Made by a program: the position numbers and the translations under genes. DNA of 44,701 nt from Promethearchaeota archaeon (GTDB taxonomy: Archaea; Asgardarchaeota; Lokiarchaeia; Sigyniarchaeales; SOKP01): NCBI GenBank assembly GCA_048940925.1, contig JBHLOC010000021.1, positions 1-44,701 on the forward strand, written 5' to 3'. This document shows, in pieces, positions 339 to 33,109 of the stretch (the stretch's first letter is position 1; each line of letters opens with the position of its first letter). The notes beneath the pieces were generated by a model that made no database searches, was not told the DNA's origin, and saw only the letters and a list, made by a program, of their open reading frames with translations.

Positions 339-2864
339 ATGAAAGTAAAAAGAAAGCAACTTGTATATCTATTTTTTTTCTTTACTATATTCATTTTTGC
401 GAACGTTTTAAATTATGCATATATAGATAAGTTTGAAAGGAACTTAAATAAAAAAACCAATAGGCTCATTGAAGATTATAAATTAAAAAATGCTGAGATA
501 ACAAATAAAATCCATATTGATAATAATTGGTCTGCTGCAAAAGCAGCGGGGATTTGTACTGGTGATGGCAATTACTCTAAACCTTATGTTATAGAAGATT
601 TGATAATAGATGGAGGTGGTTCAGGGAGTTGTATACTAATTGAGAATTCCAATGTATCCTTTATTATTCGAAATTGTACGCTATATAATTCTGGGAGTGG
701 AGCATTTAATGGGGGAATTAGATTGGATAATGTTGATAATGGACAATTAATTAATGATACCGCAAAAAATAATTACGCGGGAATATATTTAGATCATTGT
801 AATAACAACACGATTTTGGAAAATACCCTAAATGAAAATGAAAATGGGATTTATGCAGATCATTTTAATAATAACACGATTTCTGGAAATACCCTAAATA
901 ATCCTGGTGCTGGAATAAGACTATATTATAGTGATAACACTATGATTTCGAGAAATACCATAAATAATAGTGTTTATGGAATATATTTAGGTGATTGTTA
1001 TAACAACACAGTTATTGGGAATTTAATGAATTATTGTGAAATTGTTGTTAGGGGTTCTTATTTATTAGAAGTTGCATCACATTATATTGATGATACAAAC
1101 CTTGTTAATAACAAACCTGTCTATTATTATGCAAATGAAATTGGATTAGGGACGAATAATTTTACGAATGCTGGGCAAATTATTTTAATTAATTGTAGTA
1201 ATTCGATAATTTCTGAGTTAAATCTATCAAATGACACTGCTGGAATATATTTGTATTATAGTCATAACAACACACTTTCGGGTATTACCGTAAATAATAA
1301 TAACCTGACTCGGGCTGGAATATGGTTAAGATTTAGTGATAACAACACACTTTCAGGAAATACTGCAAATAACAATGAAAATGGAATAGATTTATATTTT
1401 AGTAATAATAACATACTTTCGGGAAATACTGCAAATAATAATCAGGGTGGAATAGTTTTATATGCAAGTCATAACAACACAATTTCAGGAAATACTGCAA
1501 ATTACAATGATTATGGGATACCTCTAGCTATTAGTAATAATAACACGCTTTCGGGAAATACTATAAATAACAATGGTGAGGGAATATATTTAGATGATAG
1601 TGATAACAACACACTTTCAGGAAATACTATAAATAACAATGATGAGGGAATAATTTTAGAATATAGTCATAAAAACACGTTTTTTGAAAATATTTTTCGA
1701 GATAATATAGAATATGGTATATTCATTTCAGACGGAATATACGAATACAGTACTCAGAATTTATTCTTTCAAAATTATTTTCTAAGCAATATTGTACATG
1801 CGTATGATGGAGGAATAGATAATTATTGGAATAATTCGATCATAGGTAATTATTGGGATAATTATATTGGCGTCGATGTAGATCATGATGGAATAGGAGA
1901 TACTCCCTATTATTTTTACGGAGGTGCGGATTATTTACCAATATATTTCATAAGAATAATTATTAATTCTCCTAAAAATTTTGATGTGTTTGGTGCCATA
2001 GCACCTAATTTTAATATAACAATTAATGAATCTAAGTTAGATAAGATGTGGTATTCCTTAAATGGAGGTGCAAATATAAATTTTACTGAGTTTACGGGAA
2101 AAATAAATCAATCTTTATGGGATAATTTGCCTGAAGGAAATGTAGTAATTAAATTTTATGCAAACGATACAATAGGAAGAATAGGATTTCAAGAAGTATC
2201 AATTAAAAAGGATATTACTGCTCCATCAATAACTATCAATAATCCCCATAATAACGAGATATTCAGCTTCACAGCCCCAAATTTTAATATAACCATTGAT
2301 GAACCAAATTTAGATAAGACTTGGTATTCTTTAATGGGGAGTAAGAATATAACTTTTTCGAAGAATACTGGAATTATAGATCAAGCGTTATGGGATACTT
2401 TTCCTGAAGGAGATATAACCATTAAATTTTATGCAAATGATACCTTAGGAAGAATAGGATTTCAAGAAGTATCAATCAAAAAGGAAAGTACTGCCCCGAT
2501 AATAACAATCAATAATCCCCGAAGTAACGAGATATTTGGTGTCGCAGCTCCAAGTTTTAATATTACGATTGATGAATCATATTTAGATAAGACATGGTAT
2601 TCCTTAAATGGAGATACGAATATAACTTTTAGAGGGTTTACTGGAAAAATAAATCAAACTTTATGGGATGCTTTACCTGAAGGAAATGTGGCCATTAAAT
2701 TTTATGCAAATAATACCTTAGGAAGAATAGGTTTTCAAGAAGTTATCGTAATAAAAGAAATTTCTCCTAGGGGGATTCCAGGATATGATTTAATATTCCT
2801 AGTAGGATTTATGTCTGCTATTGCCGTAATAATCATCAGAAAGAAATTAAATCATTTATATTAA
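339..2864 (+). CDS. Cell-surface protein with NosD/right-handed parallel beta-helix repeats, three tandem ~91-aa (probably Ig-like) domains and a C-terminal membrane anchor
   Basis: N-terminal hydrophobic segment; many GIYLxxSxNNTLSGNTxNNN repeats; GNYWDNY..D.D.DGIGD.PY NosD-type C-cap; C-terminal IPGY + hydrophobic helix + RKK, resembling a PGF/Loki-CTERM sorting signal. Confidence 0.85.
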   Translation: MKVKRKQLVYLFFFFTIFIFANVLNYAYIDKFERNLNKKTNRLIEDYKLKNAEITNKIHIDNNWSAAKAAGICTGDGNYSKPYVIEDLIIDGGGSGSCILIENSNVSFIIRNCTLYNSGSGAFNGGIRLDNVDNGQLINDTAKNNYAGIYLDHCNNNTILENTLNENENGIYADHFNNNTISGNTLNNPGAGIRLYYSDNTMISRNTINNSVYGIYLGDCYNNTVIGNLMNYCEIVVRGSYLLEVASHYIDDTNLVNNKPVYYYANEIGLGTNNFTNAGQIILINCSNSIISELNLSNDTAGIYLYYSHNNTLSGITVNNNNLTRAGIWLRFSDNNTLSGNTANNNENGIDLYFSNNNILSGNTANNNQGGIVLYASHNNTISGNTANYNDYGIPLAISNNNTLSGNTINNNGEGIYLDDSDNNTLSGNTINNNDEGIILEYSHKNTFFENIFRDNIEYGIFISDGIYEYSTQNLFFQNYFLSNIVHAYDGGIDNYWNNSIIGNYWDNYIGVDVDHDGIGDTPYYFYGGADYLPIYFIRIIINSPKNFDVFGAIAPNFNITINESKLDKMWYSLNGGANINFTEFTGKINQSLWDNLPEGNVVIKFYANDTIGRIGFQEVSIKKDITAPSITINNPHNNEIFSFTAPNFNITIDEPNLDKTWYSLMGSKNITFSKNTGIIDQALWDTFPEGDITIKFYANDTLGRIGFQEVSIKKESTAPIITINNPRSNEIFGVAAPSFNITIDESYLDKTWYSLNGDTNITFRGFTGKINQTLWDALPEGNVAIKFYANNTLGRIGFQEVIVIKEISPRGIPGYDLIFLVGFMSAIAVIIIRKKLNHLY
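1956..2757 (+). repeat. Three tandem intragenic domain repeats, 273-nt period
   Basis: Units start at 1956, 2229 and 2502 (I(I/T)IN(S/N)P...WYSL...LWD..PEG...IKFYAN.T.GRIGFQEV). Confidence 0.9.
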
Positions 2865-28338: not shown

Positions 28339-29628
28339 ATGTCAAGAACCACTGAAATAGTATCAAATGCCGAATTTAATAAAAGTATAACCTCAAAAAG
28401 AATTGCATCTATAGATTTTGTTAAAGGATTTGCTTTAGTTTGGATTATCTTAGCCCATTCAGCTCTTAGTTGGTTTGATAAAGATTGGAGGTATATATAT
28501 GGGTTAGTGTTTGCATTTATGGATGTTCTCGGTCCCTCTTTATTTGTTTTTCTTTCAGCGCTTAGTGTTATTTTTAGTGTTAAAAGAAAAAAAGGAGAAA
28601 TTTCTGAGAAAGCAATTCGTAATGGGATATTAACTCGTGGATTTGTAATAATCCTTATTGGTGTGCTATTTAATCCAATGTCATTGTACACTTCAGGGGT
28701 ATCAGTACCCTTCCCTACTAATTTGTGGGGATGGAACATCTTAATGTTTATAGGATTTTCTCAGATATTGTCATATTATGCACTGAAATTGAGTAAGAGA
28801 GTTCGCGCAGTATTGGGTGTTGTTATAATCTACTTTTCTCCATGGATTCGAGAAGTTCTCTACGAAGGTAAAGTAGCAGGCAATTTGATTTTAAGTTTTT
28901 TTCATTTCATTATCACATCCCCTCTCCCTCAAGTACCAATTTTGCCATACCTTTCAATATGTTTTATATCTACAATATTTGGTGAATTTCTTCACGAAGC
29001 AATGATAAAAGGAACTAAAGAAGCTTATTATAAACTATTCCGAATTTTTGCTTTCTACGGAGTCGCATTAGTATTAATTGGATTATTTATAATCGTTCCA
29101 AGAGGAGTTAATTTTGACATTTGGGAAATTGGACTTTCCCGGGTTAAACCTGCTCTTTCTGTATATGGAGCACCCCACTCGTCACCTGGTTTTATTGTAG
29201 AATCCGAATATTTACATATAGATTTATTACGAATTGCTAATCAACAAGATTTTACACCATTTGACGCGATGCCAATTTATATGGTAAGATGTACAGCTCA
29301 AAACATGTTTTATAACCTAGGTGTTGGGTTTTTACTTATCGCTATAAGTTTTTATTTTATTGATATTAAAAATAAATCTAATGATGTTATAAAATTAGTT
29401 GTTTTTTATGGAAAAGTAAGCCTCTCTCTATTTTTAATTCAATATTTATTTCTCCCATTATATGGTGGCCAGTTTTCAATAATTTTTCTCCCAATCGTCT
29501 GGGTTGGATACTGTGGATTTTTAGGTTTACTTATGTATCTCTGGACGGAATATTTTGGAGGTGTTGGAACTCCTGAGTGGATTATGGGCAAACTGGGCGG
29601 AGCTGGGAAAAAGAAAAAAAAATCTTGA
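28339..29628 (+). CDS. HGSNAT/DUF1624-type membrane acyltransferase, paralog 2
   Basis: Clear paralog of 25321-26715 (shared LGPSLFVFLSALSVIFS.KRK, SICFISTIFGE, YGKVSLSLFLI). Confidence 0.8.
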   Translation: MSRTTEIVSNAEFNKSITSKRIASIDFVKGFALVWIILAHSALSWFDKDWRYIYGLVFAFMDVLGPSLFVFLSALSVIFSVKRKKGEISEKAIRNGILTRGFVIILIGVLFNPMSLYTSGVSVPFPTNLWGWNILMFIGFSQILSYYALKLSKRVRAVLGVVIIYFSPWIREVLYEGKVAGNLILSFFHFIITSPLPQVPILPYLSICFISTIFGEFLHEAMIKGTKEAYYKLFRIFAFYGVALVLIGLFIIVPRGVNFDIWEIGLSRVKPALSVYGAPHSSPGFIVESEYLHIDLLRIANQQDFTPFDAMPIYMVRCTAQNMFYNLGVGFLLIAISFYFIDIKNKSNDVIKLVVFYGKVSLSLFLIQYLFLPLYGGQFSIIFLPIVWVGYCGFLGLLMYLWTEYFGGVGTPEWIMGKLGGAGKKKKKS

Positions 29629-29838
29629 AACAAATTTCTTTTCTGAGTTTATTAATAAATTCTTCACTTTATAATAAACAATTTAGTAATACTTAACTAA
29701 TTGTAAATATATAAATATCTTTAAAGAATAATATGAAATATTAAATTGCAAATTAAATATATTAAATAACAATTTGAAAATTAGATAATAATTATAATAT
29801 AATAACACTCATATTAATTTATTATAAGGAGTTAGAAT

Positions 29839-30393
29839 ATGTCAGGACAAGGAGAATTCAAATTCAAGATAACACGAACGTAAATGTCTTACGATCCTAT
29901 CTAATTGTTTGGTCCTGGAGGAGTAGGTAAAACAAGCCTTTTATTACGCTATATTAAAGACTATTTTAGTGATGATTTAAAGAAGACAATAGGTAGTAAT
30001 TTTTTAATTAAAGATGTAGAAATAGATGGAAAAGGTGTTCGTCTTCTCCTTTGGGATATTGGTGGGCAGCCACAATTCCACAAACTTAGAACTATTTATT
30101 TTAAAGGCAGTAATGGTGCTCTTGGTGTTTTTGATCTATCATCTAGTCAATCACTTTTAAAGATTCCTGGATGGATTAGTTCTATCAAAAAATCAGTAAA
30201 AAGAACTATTCCTATGATACTCATTGGAAATAAATCTGATTTAGAGAGAGATATTGATAAAGAAGAAGCCGAGGACTTAGCTAAACGGTTAAGTTGTGAA
30301 TATATGGAAACTTCAGCAAAAACAGGCGAGAATGTAGAAGTTGCATTTGAATCAATTGCTAAAGCTTGCCTTGAGGATGTAGGAGAAATATAA
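29839..30393 (+). CDS. Rab-like small GTPase, split by a 30-nt intron; predicted join(29839..29873,29904..30393), 174 aa
   Basis: SD AAGGAG at 29826-29831, then ATG. Spliced product is MSGQGEFKFKIT-LFGPGGVGKTSLL; G1 GPGGVGKT, TIG, WDIGGQ, NKSD, ETSAK. Confidence 0.88.
29874..29903 (+). other. Candidate bulge-helix-bulge (BHB) mRNA intron, 30 nt
   Basis: Central 4-bp helix GATA(29868-71)/TATC(29898-901); 3-nt bulges ACA(29872-74) and TAA(29902-04); exon helix CAA/TTG; intron hairpin CGTAA/TTACG; two in-frame TAA stops removed by excision. Confidence 0.8.
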
Positions 30394-30410
30394 CATTTAA
30401 TACTTTTATT

Positions 30411-31034
30411 TTAATTAACCTCTATGTGCAGTGTTTTGAGCTCATTAATTAATTCTTCATTATTTGTAAATTTAATAGCTAAAATTCCTAATTCTCGGGC
30501 GGACCGAATATTATTCAACCCATCATCTATAAAAACTATTTCCTCTGGCTTACAATCAGCTTTTTGTATGGTATATTGAAATATTTCTTTATTAGGTTTA
30601 GTCATATGAATCTCATGAGATAAAATAATTTCATCAAAATATTCCAGAAAATCCCACTTTTTTTTTAAAATATATTCCCAATGACTCGAATTTACATTTG
30701 ATAAGGCAATAAGTTTATATTTACCTGTTTGTTTCAATTTTTTTACTAATGTAATACTATTTTGATTAATTCCTGAAATAATACTATTGAATGCTGCAAA
30801 AAAATCATTTTGATCTAATTCACATACTTGCAGTAAATCGCACGATAATTGGTAAAATTCCTGATCACTCATTAATCCCTGATGGTAAATGTCTGATTGA
30901 CGGAAAAATTCCAGAATAATTGGTGTTTGAGGTTTGTTTAAGGGAGATAGAGTTATTATTTTATTATAAAAATTTGAAAAATCCAAGTCAACAATTACTC
31001 CACCTAAATCAAATATTAATGCTTTTACTCTCAT
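30411..31034 (-). CDS. HAD-superfamily phosphatase
   Basis: FDLGGV, LSN, KP...IF and FIDD...N motifs. Confidence 0.92.
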   Translation of the reverse strand: MRVKALIFDLGGVIVDLDFSNFYNKIITLSPLNKPQTPIILEFFRQSDIYHQGLMSDQEFYQLSCDLLQVCELDQNDFFAAFNSIISGINQNSITLVKKLKQTGKYKLIALSNVNSSHWEYILKKKWDFLEYFDEIILSHEIHMTKPNKEIFQYTIQKADCKPEEIVFIDDGLNNIRSARELGILAIKFTNNEELINELKTLHIEVN

Positions 31035-31048
31035 AATTTTTAAAAAAC

Positions 31049-33109
31049 CTACTTACGAAAATATATTCTCGTTGAAAACTTTCTAAAAGGTATTGGTAAT
31101 TTATATTTTGGGAAGTTTATTGTATCTTCTTCAAGCATTTCAAATAATGTATTCAAGCTAACATTATTAACTTGTTTAGAAGTCTGCTTTTTTGGACCAA
31201 AAGGTTTACCTATTAATCTCTTTCTTATCGAAATTGTCTGGTTTTCTTGTTCTTTTTTACCAAGAATAATTATATATGGAATCCACTCGATTTCTGCTTG
31301 TCTAATTTTTTTTCCAACTGTATCTTCTCGATCGTCAAAATCTGCTCTAAAATCCTCTCCATTGATGATATTCAGCAATTTTTCAGCATAAATGTTTTGT
31401 TCGTCGCTCACGGTTATTATTCGGACTTGTATTGGAGACAACCATGTTTTAAATCCAGGTACTATTTTTTCCTTATTTCGAATAGCAGATTCAATTAAAC
31501 CCCATAAAACTCTTTCTATGGCACCAGTTGGAGAGTTGTGAAGAATTATTGGATGTTTCAACTGACCATCGGTGTCTATGAAAGAAATATTATATTTTTG
31601 CCTTTTTATACCATCATTATCAGCCATATATTCTAATGAGCTCTCTACATCGATCTGATTAGTTGCTAATGTCGCACTTCTGTTTTGAGCAGAAAGAACA
31701 TTTCTTTCAAGTTTTAGTATATAATAATAATATCTATCTTCCCATAATTCTAATAACGCAGGATATTTTTCTGACTTAATTAAATCAATGATCCAATCCT
31801 TATTTTCCTCATAAAAATCTTGTGTAACTCTAAAAATAACATAAGTTTTTATCCCTAAATCTTTTTCCAGACTCTTAATTAAATCATACTGCTTTTTAAA
31901 CTCCTCAATAGAAGATTTTATATCTTTACACATTGTATGCATATCTGGCATTATAAAAGCTCGTAATCTTCTTAAACCGCTTAACTCACCTTCTAACTCA
32001 CGTCTAAATGCATATTGTTCAAATTCATAGGCTCTTAATGGAAGGTAATGTGGTTTTAAATTCATTTGAGAAAAAAGATCGAATAAAAGAAAGTCACAAG
32101 CATATCTTAAAAGATATCTATCTTTACCAGATTCAACCCAATAACTTCTTGCTGGAAAACGAGCAGTCTGAGCTGTCAATTTTTTATTTTTTACAGTATA
32201 CATTACAGGTGTATCAAGAAGAATTGCTCCATAATCTATTAATCTATCTTCTATAAAATTTTTTATCAAATTTTTCATAATGATCCCTTTTGTATACCAC
32301 CTAAAATTCCCTGCATCAGTATTAGGATCAAAATCTACTAGTTCAAACTCCTTCATTACTTTTATATGAGCGGGTTCCATTGCTTTATTTGTTAATCTAG
32401 AACCTAATTCTGAATTTAGGAATAAATGAAAATCATCGTCTTTAATCTCCTTTGGTAGAATTAATTTTTGATTTTCATCAAAAGCTAAATCAATTTCTTT
32501 CCCTGAATTTGTAACCACTTTAAATACGGAATTTTTAACCTGTTCTTCTGGTTTAATAGCCAATTTAACATCTCTGTACATCTCAGCTAATTCATGTCCT
32601 AAGCAATTTATTTTAAACGATTTATACCAACCAAAAGGAGAAAATTTTGCTTCAATACCTTTTTCTCTTAAAATTTGAGCAATTTTTGGGCACACTTCCA
32701 TAGCATTTACCTCATTACTCAGAAATTTACTTAGATGTGCCCATGGATAAACTAAAACTTTATCCACACGATACTTATCTCTCTCCATAATAAGTTCTGA
32801 TAATTTTCTAGCTTTTCCTTTGATTTCTCCTTTTTCAACTTTTTTATTAAATTCTCTTATCACTTCATTTTTTTGTCTTAATTGCTCAGGAAATCCTGTA
32901 ATTTGTAAAATTGCTGCTTCTATTTCATCAGCACCTTGTCTTGCAATTAAATTAGTATCATATGTGTCTTGATCTTCAACAGATATAAAACATACTAAAA
33001 TTAAACCTCCCATCTTGATAAAATTTTCTGTAAATTCTTGAGGATTACTGGTTGCTTCTTTATTTTTAATTACTTCTACATTCTGGGAGTGAATTAATAA
33101 GATTTTCAT
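31049..33109 (-). CDS. thrS: Threonyl-tRNA synthetase, archaeal type with N-terminal editing domain
   Basis: MKILLIHS, VYP.AHLS, PFGWYK.F...C.GH.LAE editing domain; LRYAC, FRRE..GEL.GLRRLRAF.MPDMH, ILH.SP.G.IER and WLSP.QVR motifs. Confidence 0.96.
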   Translation of the reverse strand: MKILLIHSQNVEVIKNKEATSNPQEFTENFIKMGGLILVCFISVEDQDTYDTNLIARQGADEIEAAILQITGFPEQLRQKNEVIREFNKKVEKGEIKGKARKLSELIMERDKYRVDKVLVYPWAHLSKFLSNEVNAMEVCPKIAQILREKGIEAKFSPFGWYKSFKINCLGHELAEMYRDVKLAIKPEEQVKNSVFKVVTNSGKEIDLAFDENQKLILPKEIKDDDFHLFLNSELGSRLTNKAMEPAHIKVMKEFELVDFDPNTDAGNFRWYTKGIIMKNLIKNFIEDRLIDYGAILLDTPVMYTVKNKKLTAQTARFPARSYWVESGKDRYLLRYACDFLLFDLFSQMNLKPHYLPLRAYEFEQYAFRRELEGELSGLRRLRAFIMPDMHTMCKDIKSSIEEFKKQYDLIKSLEKDLGIKTYVIFRVTQDFYEENKDWIIDLIKSEKYPALLELWEDRYYYYILKLERNVLSAQNRSATLATNQIDVESSLEYMADNDGIKRQKYNISFIDTDGQLKHPIILHNSPTGAIERVLWGLIESAIRNKEKIVPGFKTWLSPIQVRIITVSDEQNIYAEKLLNIINGEDFRADFDDREDTVGKKIRQAEIEWIPYIIILGKKEQENQTISIRKRLIGKPFGPKKQTSKQVNNVSLNTLFEMLEEDTINFPKYKLPIPFRKFSTRIYFRK

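What the first reader, a model, noticed from the sequence alone, without database searches (positions are those of the whole stretch)
29839..29920. Bulge-helix-bulge intron inside the mRNA of an Asgard Rab-like GTPase
Seen: a good SD and ATG (29839) encode MSGQGEFKFKIT, the expected first beta strand of a Ras-family G domain. A 30-nt insert with two in-frame TAA stops follows, then LFGPGGVGKT (P-loop). The junctions form a BHB: exon helix CAA(29865-67)/TTG(29905-07), central 4-bp helix GATA/TATC, and 3-nt bulges ACA and TAA on opposite strands. The intron stem is GA-A-CGTAA/TTACG-A-TC; its first pair is a C.C mismatch, so it is a slightly relaxed BHB/BHL. Cutting after the second nucleotide of each bulge (the EndA rule) removes exactly 29874-29903 and rebuilds codon AC|A (Thr) in frame. 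Established: archaeal EndA plus RtcB splice BHB introns from tRNA and rRNA, and mRNA introns are rare (cbf5 in some crenarchaea is the classic case); eukaryotic HAC1/XBP1 splicing uses analogous endonuclease/ligase chemistry. Inference: this lineage splices protein-coding pre-mRNAs, here gating expression of a eukaryotic-signature trafficking-type GTPase. Gene callers would hide this by starting at TTG 29905.
Basis: partly seen in the sequence, partly recalled or inferred. Interest (0 to 1): 0.95.

Follow-up and report, generated by a model that had tools for sequence, protein, structure and literature searches.

The report
tRNA-type mini-intron in Asgard GTPase gene
The only copy of a very conserved Rab-like GTPase gene in this Asgard archaeon is interrupted by a 30-base insert shaped like a tRNA intron, so its mRNA very probably has to be cut and rejoined by the tRNA-splicing enzymes, a process that the papers I could search confirm inside a coding sequence for only one archaeal gene (cbf5).

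Summary
A 30-nt insert (29874-29903) carrying two in-frame TAA codons separates exon 1 (ATG 29839, MSGQGEFKFKIT) from the P-loop.

- Removing it by the EndA rule gives exactly the N-terminus of uninterrupted 174-aa orthologues (93-96% identical).
- The insert is identical in independent assemblies from three studies, so it is not an artefact.
- Two other MAGs carry a 30-nt insert at the same codon. It has the same bulge-helix-bulge geometry, and 8 of 16 pairs are changed on both sides, two of them exon-intron pairs.
- The orthogroup carries similar 30-32-nt inserts at three further sites in other genomes.
- All spliced reading frames are intact, with dN/dS of 0.04-0.07.
- The genome encodes a catalytic and a non-catalytic EndA paralogue plus RtcB. 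At least six other genes have the same kind of insert, including a second GTPase.

Best reading (about 0.85): an obligatory EndA/RtcB-spliced mRNA intron. No RNA data were available for this organism, and "gating of expression" is untested.

In the papers I could search, only cbf5 (Crenarchaeota) and one Haloferax 5' UTR are documented. Earlier notes of this scan report the same phenomenon on other Asgard DNA and elsewhere in this genome.

The parts
29828..29831 (+). Shine-Dalgarno-like GGAG, 7 nt upstream of the ATG
   Evidence: Read directly from the sequence. The same AAGGAG-N7-ATG arrangement occurs in the intronless orthologues L006-L008.
29839..29873 (+). Exon 1: ATG plus 11 codons plus the first two bases of Thr12 (MSGQGEFKFKI, AC-)
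   Evidence: Translation. The peptide is identical to the N-terminus of P0002 and L006/L008. Reading the exon 1 sequences side by side, all 4 differences from L008/L003 are synonymous.
29874..29903 (+). 30-nt BHB mini-intron (29875-29904 is an equivalent description), with two in-frame TAA codons
   Evidence: It is precisely absent from 174-aa orthologues. It is present and identical in independent contigs of runs X2, X6 and X7. It is not repeated elsewhere in the genome.
29865..29867 (+). Outer exon helix h, 5' strand (CAA), pairing with TTG 29905-29907
   Evidence: Pair table. The Leu13 codon is TTR in all 5 site-A carriers against 23 of 79 non-carriers.
29868..29871 (+). Central 4-bp helix H, exon strand (GATA), pairing with TATC 29898-29901 in the intron
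   Evidence: All 4 pairs are Watson-Crick. In L049 the exon reads GGTC and the intron GACT, which gives two pairs changed on both sides.
29872..29874 (+). 5' bulge ACA; predicted cut between 29873 and 29874
   Evidence: The geometry is read from the sequence. The rule of cutting between the 2nd and 3rd bulge residue is stated in PMC2738675.
29875..29897 (+). Intron hairpin h': 9-position stem (29875-83 / 29889-97; 7 paired, C.C and A.A mismatches) and 5-nt loop ATGTC (29884-88)
   Evidence: In L001 all 9 positions pair, including a C-G to G-C swap.
29898..29901 (+). Central helix H, intron strand (TATC)
29902..29904 (+). 3' bulge TAA; predicted cut between 29903 and 29904
   Evidence: The resulting junction AC|A TTG matches the ...KIT LFGPGG... 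of the orthologues.
29904..30393 (+). Exon 2: third base of Thr12, then Leu13 to Ile174 and the stop. The Ras-family G domain has G1 GPGGVGKT, G3 DIGGQ, G4 NKSD and G5 ETSAK.
   Evidence: Pfam Ras PF00071, E = 2.5e-47. It is 85-96% identical to 173-174-aa Asgard orthologues.

Best explanation
The 30 nt at 29874-29903 are an archaeal bulge-helix-bulge (BHB) intron inside the coding sequence of a Rab-like small GTPase.

Proposed mechanism:
1. The gene is transcribed with the insert.
2. In the pre-mRNA, exon bases GATA pair with intron bases TATC to form a 4-bp helix. This helix is flanked by two 3-nt bulges on opposite strands, by the intron hairpin, and by a short exon-exon helix (CAA/TTG).
3. 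The splicing endonuclease EndA cuts after the second nucleotide of each bulge. Here it is inferred to be an (alpha-beta)2 enzyme made of a catalytic and a non-catalytic paralogue.
4. RtcB joins the exons and probably circularises the 30-nt intron.
5. The spliced mRNA encodes the full 174-aa GTPase, with strand beta-1 joined to the P-loop.

Unspliced RNA can give only a 14-residue peptide or, at best, a protein that lacks beta-1.

Shown here: the DNA anatomy, the exact junction, structural covariation, purifying selection, and the presence of the enzymes.

Inferred, not shown: the cleavage and ligation themselves.
For: 1. Exact junction. Removal by the EndA rule gives MSGQGEFKFKIT|LFGPGG, identical to uninterrupted orthologues (P0002, L006, L008).
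2. Real DNA. The insert is identical in Logan contigs of three other samples from three studies.
3. Same-site inserts. L001 and L049 carry 30-nt inserts at the same codon with the same geometry. Of their cells, 91.7% are paired against 27-40% in slid controls, and 8 of 16 pairs are changed on both sides. No shuffle of 500 reached the observed percentage paired, number of pairs changed on both sides, or covariation score. The changes include exon-intron pairs of the central helix. L002 and L095 are truncated further carriers.
4. Other sites. The same orthogroup has 30-32-nt BHB inserts at I29/K30, D63/I64 (4 genomes, frameshifting) and Q67/S68. In all nine inserts the rule restores an intact frame.
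5. Selection. dN/dS is 0.04-0.07 against intronless orthologues at dS 0.44-0.84. Two site-C carriers differ by dS 1.7 with dN/dS 0.035. This is the only copy of the orthogroup in the genome.
6. Machinery. There are two EndA paralogues, one with the Tyr/His/Lys triad (identified from my own knowledge of the family) and one without it, plus RtcB. ARAGORN calls introns in 22 of 34 tRNA genes.
7. Same genome. A blind scan followed by Pfam shows 30-31-nt BHB inserts that split single genes or domains: an EF-2-like gene, a phosphorylase, ELP3, a thiolase and an AIRS-like gene, plus a second Ras-family gene at DIAGQ|PQF. Among hits with at least 60 open codons on both sides, the true geometry gave 7 and the mirror geometry 1.
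Against: - No RNA evidence exists for this locus or organism: no spliced read, no circular intron, no peptide across the junction.
- This BHB is the weakest of the nine examined. The stem has two mismatches, the outer helix is only 3 bp, and the constrained fold is -4.1 kcal/mol. The unconstrained MFE prefers a slightly different outer pairing and is not better than shuffles (z = -1.18).
- The covariation rests on only three complete site-A sequences, and I placed the structure by eye on them. L049's intron may be an independent insertion rather than a homologue.
- My first genome-wide decoy tests showed no enrichment, because gene boundaries swamp them.
- The MAG has 8.4% estimated contamination.
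Confidence: 0.85

Rival explanations
1. The insert is tolerated because translation starts at TTG 29905. The cell would make a 162-aa GTPase without strand beta-1, and 29839-29904 would be an untranslated leader. This is what the public annotation implies.
For: TTG 29905 opens a 162-aa frame. Gene callers produced 162-aa products for the window, L001 and L002.
Against: - Exon 1 is kept at the protein level: all 4 differences from L008/L003 are synonymous.
- A GGAG precedes ATG 29839, and none precedes TTG 29905.
- All 120 listed homologues other than the intron carriers are 172-175 aa and include FKFKIT.
- The idea cannot apply to the frameshifting mid-gene inserts of the same orthogroup.
- The central helix covaries between exon 1 and the insert.
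Confidence: 0.04
2. The gene is a recent pseudogene, disrupted by a 30-bp insertion that merely happens to fold.
For: There are two in-frame stops. This BHB is imperfect. Most orthologues lack any insert.
Against: - dN/dS is 0.04-0.07 with no other lesion.
- It is the sole copy of an orthogroup that is 85-96% identical across genera.
- Carriers of site C kept both the insert and an intact frame over dS of about 1.7.
- The structure is kept by compensatory changes.
- A chance BHB in the right register has a probability of about 1e-4.
- At least six other genes of the genome have the same architecture.
Confidence: 0.04
3. The insert is skipped during translation. Ribosomes would hop over it, as in T4 gene 60 or the mitochondrial 'byp' elements, rather than the RNA being spliced.
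For: The size (30 nt), a hairpin, and a stop codon soon after the take-off region resemble bypass elements. This comparison rests on my own knowledge of those systems.
Against: - No matched take-off and landing codons exist. ACA or ATA lies before the insert, but the bases before TTG 29905 are ATC TAA. The 32-nt site-C inserts (GAT ... AAA|ATT) have none either.
- Bypassing does not predict a 4-bp exon-intron helix with symmetric 3-nt bulges, or its covariation.
Confidence: 0.03
4. The insert is an assembly or sequencing artefact.
For: None beyond the prior that MAGs contain errors.
Against: Contigs from runs X2, X6 and X7 (three studies, different samples) cover 29794-29947 or more with no differences and no gaps, and no contig joins across the insert. 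Independent MAGs carry inserts at the same site.
Confidence: 0.01

Closest known systems
BHB intron in the cbf5 (pseudouridine synthase) pre-mRNA of Crenarchaeota (Watanabe 2002; Yokobori 2009, PMC2738675)
   Same: - It is a short BHB or relaxed-BHB intron inside a coding sequence.
- The cuts lie between the 2nd and 3rd bulge residues.
- The host has a hetero-oligomeric EndA.
- The intron sits in a highly conserved motif of the protein.
- It is patchily present among relatives, which implies gain and loss.
   Different: - The gene and the phylum differ: a Ras-family GTPase in Asgard/Promethearchaeota.
- Here one orthogroup has four insertion sites, and the same genome has several other interrupted genes.
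- Splicing of cbf5 was shown experimentally. Here it is inferred.
Archaeal tRNA/rRNA BHB introns, including the many non-canonical introns of Asgard tRNA genes (bioRxiv 10.64898/2026.10.13.758758)
   Same: - The hBHBh' geometry and the presumed EndA plus RtcB machinery are the same.
- Most Asgard genomes have two EndA paralogues, consistent with an (alpha-beta)2 enzyme.
- This genome is also rich in tRNA introns.
   Different: - The host RNA is an mRNA, and the exon half of the motif is made of codons.
- That preprint does not treat protein-coding genes: it has no occurrence of 'mRNA' and only one, incidental, of 'protein-coding'.
BHB intron in the 5' UTR of Haloferax volcanii HVO_1309 (PMC7714728)
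   Same: It is an mRNA substrate of EndA, shown by circRNA-seq and in vitro cleavage.
   Different: That intron lies in the untranslated leader and does not interrupt the reading frame. Here splicing is needed to make the protein at all.
HAC1/XBP1 unconventional mRNA splicing (IRE1 plus tRNA ligase/RtcB)
   Same: Splicing works by protein endonuclease plus ligase, and it changes the reading frame or product of an mRNA. RtcB is the ligase in metazoa (from my own knowledge).
   Different: IRE1 is unrelated to EndA and recognises stem-loops, not a BHB. That system is a regulated stress switch, and there is no evidence of regulation here.
Translational bypass elements (T4 gene 60; mitochondrial byps)
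   Same: They are short stop-containing inserts with a hairpin inside an otherwise intact gene.
   Different: They need matched take-off and landing codons, which are absent here. They work at the ribosome, not at the RNA.

Membership tests
Archaeal BHB intron (EndA/RtcB-spliced) | Two 3-nt bulges on opposite strands, each 3' of a 4-bp central helix | tested here: met
   GATA/TATC with bulges ACA and TAA. The mirror geometry is not what is found.
Archaeal BHB intron (EndA/RtcB-spliced) | Flanking helices h (exon-exon) and h' (intron) | tested here: met
   h' pairs at 7 of 9 positions with two mismatches. h is only 3 bp (CAA/TTG). This is a relaxed form and the weakest of the nine inserts compared.
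Archaeal BHB intron (EndA/RtcB-spliced) | Cutting between the 2nd and 3rd bulge nucleotide yields the functional product | tested here: met
   The junction equals that of intronless orthologues. The same rule restores the frame in all nine inserts of the orthogroup.
Archaeal BHB intron (EndA/RtcB-spliced) | Structure conserved through compensatory change in homologues | tested here: met
   Site A: 8 of 16 pairs changed on both sides, with no shuffle of 500 as high for percentage paired, pairs changed on both sides or covariation score (only 3 sequences). Site C: 2 pairs changed on both sides, 93% of cells paired.
Archaeal BHB intron (EndA/RtcB-spliced) | Host encodes a splicing endonuclease and an RNA ligase | tested here: met
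   PF01974 matches twice (C58, C18) and PF01139 RtcB once (C40). One EndA has the Y/H/K triad and the other lacks Y and H.
Archaeal BHB intron (EndA/RtcB-spliced) | Spliced RNA and/or excised circular intron observed; cleavage by EndA in vitro | not testable with these tools
   No run on record as RNA holds this DNA. The exact spliced protein is not in the protein collection.
cbf5-type pre-mRNA intron (orthologous intron family) | Located in cbf5, at the catalytic Asp codon | tested here: not met
   The host gene is a Ras-family GTPase. It works like the cbf5 intron but is not a member of that intron family.
Ras-superfamily small GTPase | G1 GxxxxGK[ST], G3 DxxGQ, G4 NKxD, G5 SAK; Pfam Ras above threshold | tested here: met
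   GPGGVGKT, DIGGQ, NKSD and ETSAK are present. PF00071 scores 160.9 bits against a cut-off of 21.6.
Rab subfamily proper | C-terminal Cys prenylation motif | tested here: not met
   The protein ends ...KACLEDVGEI with no terminal Cys motif. 'Rab-like' is a similarity label only.
Translational bypass element | Matched take-off and landing codons flanking the gap | tested here: not met
   No matching codon pair exists at the borders of the window insert or of the 32-nt site-C inserts.

The most novel reading that the evidence does not exclude
The insert is one member of a population of about 30-nt BHB mini-introns, each with a 9-bp stem, a 5-nt loop and A-rich bulges. These introns have repeatedly colonised the most conserved motif-coding segments of Asgard genes. 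They occupy four sites in this one GTPase orthogroup, the DxxGQ site of a paralogue, and at least five other genes in this genome. If so, EndA/RtcB splicing would be a routine and obligatory step of mRNA expression in the closest archaeal relatives of eukaryotes, and possibly a rate-limiting or regulated one.
Probability: 0.6. Interest if true: 0.9.

Novelty: new member of a known kind. Interest (0 to 1): 0.8.

Why it matters
Endonuclease-type splicing of a coding sequence is experimentally established in Archaea for one gene, cbf5. A 2020 study still calls that the only case besides a 5' UTR (PMC7714728).

Here the same mechanism is indicated for a eukaryote-signature small GTPase in Asgard archaea. 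It occurs at several positions of one gene and in several genes of one genome.

If RNA data confirm it, three things follow:
- Gene catalogues of Asgard genomes would be systematically wrong at such loci, with truncated or split calls such as the 162-aa products here.
- tRNA-splicing enzymes would be essential for part of the proteome.
- The lineage nearest to eukaryotes would already have interrupted protein genes that need RNA splicing, which bears on how intron-containing genes became tolerable before the spliceosome.

Tried and rejected
- RNA evidence: no RNA holder was listed for this DNA, so expression and splicing could not be examined.
- Spliced product: an exact-sequence look-up found only the 162-aa call from this contig. 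No 174-aa product identical to the predicted spliced protein exists in the collection.
- Metagenome scan for the 3' junction pattern: it gave one contig that starts 9 nt before the junction and is too truncated to use. The same pattern across 135 genomes of the family hit only G000 and G168.
- Free-energy test: the MFE of the 63-nt region is not better than shuffles (z = -1.18) and is not the BHB. Energy alone is therefore not evidence here.
- First genome-wide scans: central helix plus ORF restoration, with shifted-cut decoys, gave about 75,000 hits per rule and no enrichment. Adding a codon-usage score and hairpin energy did not help, because co-directional gene boundaries dominate. Only the architecture-specific scan with a mirror-geometry control was informative.
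- MITE or repeat idea: no 14-mer of the insert recurs in the genome.
- Known RNA family: no Rfam match.
- MAFFT alignments that mixed inserts from different sites were misaligned and were not used.
- Literature: five full-text searches found no paper on BHB introns in Asgard protein-coding genes.

Full report
**The observation.**
- GGAG lies at 29828-31 and ATG at 29839. Twelve codons (MSGQGEFKFKIT) follow.
- Ten in-frame triplets come next, containing TAA at 29881 and 29902. Then TTG 29905 opens LFGPGGVGKT and the rest of a Ras-family G domain (Pfam PF00071, E = 2.5e-47).
- The proposed bulge-helix-bulge is present in full. Exon helix: CAA/TTG. Central helix: GATA/TATC. Bulges: ACA and TAA. 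Intron stem: 7 of 9 positions paired. Loop: 5 nt.
- Shuffling the 30 inserted bases reproduces a 4/4 central helix plus at least 7 of 9 stem pairs, in a register giving the same product, only 22 times in 200,000.
- Folding energy alone is not persuasive. The MFE has z = -1.18 and uses a somewhat different outer pairing. The BHB-constrained fold is -4.1 kcal/mol against -5.7 for the free fold.

**The junction is exact.**
The protein belongs to an extremely conserved Asgard orthogroup. Listed homologues are 84-94% identical and nearly all 173-174 aa.
- P0002, L006 and L008 (93-96% identical) read MSGQGEFKFKIT-LFGPGG without interruption.
- Removing 29874-29903, which is what cutting after the second nucleotide of each bulge does, therefore recreates the orthologous sequence to the residue.
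- PMC2738675 states the same rule for the cbf5 introns: cleavage between the second and third bulge residues.

**It is real DNA.**
Contigs assembled independently from three other samples in three studies (runs X2, X6, X7) cover the insert with no differences and no gaps. No contig joins across it. No 14-mer of the insert recurs elsewhere in the 4.8-Mb genome, so it is not a repeat.

**Inserts at the same codon elsewhere.**
Two database proteins of 162 aa that start MFGPGG pointed to loci with the same interruption.
- L001 has a 30-nt insert at the same codon. All nine stem positions pair, and it shows a C-G to G-C swap relative to the window.
- L002 begins inside a third variant.
- L049, a more distant orthologue, has an unrelated-looking 30-nt insert at the same codon. 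There the exon reads GGTC instead of GATA and the intron reads GACT instead of TATC, so the exon-intron helix is kept.
- On the ungapped alignment of the three complete copies, 91.7% of cells pair, against 27-40% when partners are slid. Eight of 16 pairs change on both sides, and no shuffle of 500 reaches the observed percentage paired, pairs changed on both sides or covariation score.
- The caveat is three sequences and a structure placed by eye.
- All five carriers use TTR for Leu13, which the outer helix needs, against 23 of 79 loci without the insert.

**More sites in the same gene.**
A six-frame search of 400 Asgard genomes with the intronless protein found partial or stop-containing matches. 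Reading them showed three further insertion sites.
- A 32-nt frameshifting insert lies between D63 and I64 of the WDIGGQ motif in four genomes (L084-L089).
- One genome (L090) carries a 30-nt insert at I29/K30 and a 32-nt insert at Q67/S68.
- All of these fold into BHBs, at -5.8 to -22.1 kcal/mol under constraint. The Q67 insert is a textbook hBHBh'.
- The site-C copies keep 93% of cells paired, with two pairs changed on both sides.
- In every case the cut rule yields one intact reading frame.
- At least 7 of the 156 genomes with this gene carry an insert. Carriers are scattered among intronless sequences in a gene tree, which suggests repeated gain and/or loss. I did not test this statistically.

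**Selection.**
- The spliced window gene differs from its intronless orthologues with dN/dS of 0.04-0.07 at dS 0.44-0.84.
- Two site-C carriers differ by dS of about 1.7 with dN/dS 0.035, so gene and insert have coexisted for a long time.
- Exon 1 differs from L008/L003 by four substitutions, all synonymous.
- The gene is the only member of this orthogroup in the genome.

**Machinery and genomic context.**
- The genome encodes two EndA paralogues. One has the catalytic Tyr/His/Lys and one has lost Tyr and His. This fits the broad-specificity (alpha-beta)2 type; the triad assignment is from my own knowledge. It also encodes RtcB.
- ARAGORN calls introns in 22 of 34 tRNA genes.
- A blind scan for BHB geometry plus ORF restoration turned up 30-31-nt inserts with 9-position stems and 5-6-nt loops. 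Pfam searches of the flanking pieces show that each splits a single gene or domain: an EF-2-like GTP_EFTU domain (profile 3-35 | 49-187), a family-3 phosphorylase, ELP3, a thiolase and an AIRS-like gene.
- A second Ras-family gene (C78) has a 30-nt BHB insert at DIAGQ|PQF, with the same GGAC/GTCT central helix as L090.
- With a mirror-image geometry as control, hits with at least 60 open codons on both sides numbered 7 against 1.

**Rivals.**
- Initiation at TTG 29905 does not explain the conserved exon 1, the Shine-Dalgarno placement or the frameshifting inserts.
- A pseudogene is contradicted by selection and covariation.
- Ribosomal bypassing lacks matched take-off and landing codons and does not predict the exon-intron helix.
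- An assembly artefact is excluded.

**What is missing.**
There is no RNA-level observation. No run on record as RNA holds this DNA.

**Comparison with what is known.**
- In the literature I could search, splicing of an archaeal coding sequence is confirmed only for cbf5 of Crenarchaeota (PMC2738675). One 5' UTR intron is known in Haloferax, and the 2020 paper says so explicitly (PMC7714728).
- A 2026 preprint on Asgard tRNA introns does not treat protein genes.
- Earlier notes of this scan describe the same kind of insert in many Asgard genomes, in other Rab-like GTPases and in other genes of this genome. Some claim RNA support on other DNA.
- I independently recovered the EF-2-like case. The rest, including the RNA claims, I did not check.

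**Verdict.**
This is a new member of a known kind, the BHB intron in an mRNA. It is of high interest because of the host lineage, the host gene and the multiplicity of sites.

Noticed in passing
L084:754-785, L085:754-785, L088:573-604, L089:573-604 (site C); L090:627-656 and 482-513, minus strand (sites B and D); L001:1377-1406; L049:570-599: Orthologues of the window's GTPase in other Asgard MAGs carry 30-32-nt BHB inserts at four different codons. These codons lie at the edge of the P-loop, in helix alpha-1, inside WD|IGGQ, and after GGQ. One gene has two inserts.
   Followed up: yes
G000:C78:59767-59796 (minus): A second Ras-family paralogue of this genome has a 30-nt BHB insert at DIAGQ|PQF. 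It uses the same central helix (GGAC/GTCT) as the site-D insert of L090. Either the site is shared across paralogues or the same target sequence was hit twice.
   Followed up: partly
G000:C32:27895-27924(-), C64:13177-13206(-), C40:183124-183154(-), C77:31160-31189(-), C30:66095-66124(+): Five other genes of the genome are split by 30-31-nt BHB inserts: an EF-2-like gene, a family-3 glycosyltransferase/phosphorylase, ELP3, a thiolase and an AIRS-like gene. Pfam matches continue across four of the five breaks; for the AIRS-like gene only the downstream piece has a Pfam match.
   Followed up: partly
All mini-introns listed above: The architecture is uniform. Most have a 9-position stem and a 5-nt loop, which gives 30 nt. 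The first base of the 5' bulge is A in every case (ACA, AAA, ATA, AAT, ATT), and the 3' bulge is also A-rich. Whether this reflects enzyme preference, insertion-site preference or common descent is open.
   Followed up: no
L001 (NCBI protein MFW9971941.1), L002, window 29905-30393: Public gene calls for intron carriers are 162-aa proteins that start at the Leu13 TTG. Such loci are therefore systematically mis-annotated as N-terminally short GTPases.
   Followed up: yes
L047, L055, L057, L060, L061, L075, L090 (upstream of the YKFKIT codons): Several orthologues have no in-frame ATG/GTG/TTG upstream of the conserved N-terminus. Instead they read GGT-N5-8-ATT TC(C/T) GA..., which suggests AUU initiation in those lineages.
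   Followed up: no
whole genome G000: ARAGORN finds only 34 tRNA genes, 22 of them with introns, in a MAG estimated to be 100% complete. Many tRNA genes are probably hidden by non-canonical or multiple introns.
   Followed up: no
window 28339-33109 and L001, L003: Gene order is conserved around the GTPase: an HGSNAT/DUF1624-like membrane acyltransferase, then the GTPase, then a HAD hydrolase (opposite strand), then threonyl-tRNA synthetase (opposite strand). In L003 a GT87 glycosyltransferase lies further upstream.
   Followed up: no
G000:C7:7120-7148 and C7:5588-5616 (minus): Two identical copies of a 29-nt BHB-like candidate, with identical flanks, lie about 1.5 kb apart. This could be a duplicated gene segment or a repeat.
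   Followed up: no
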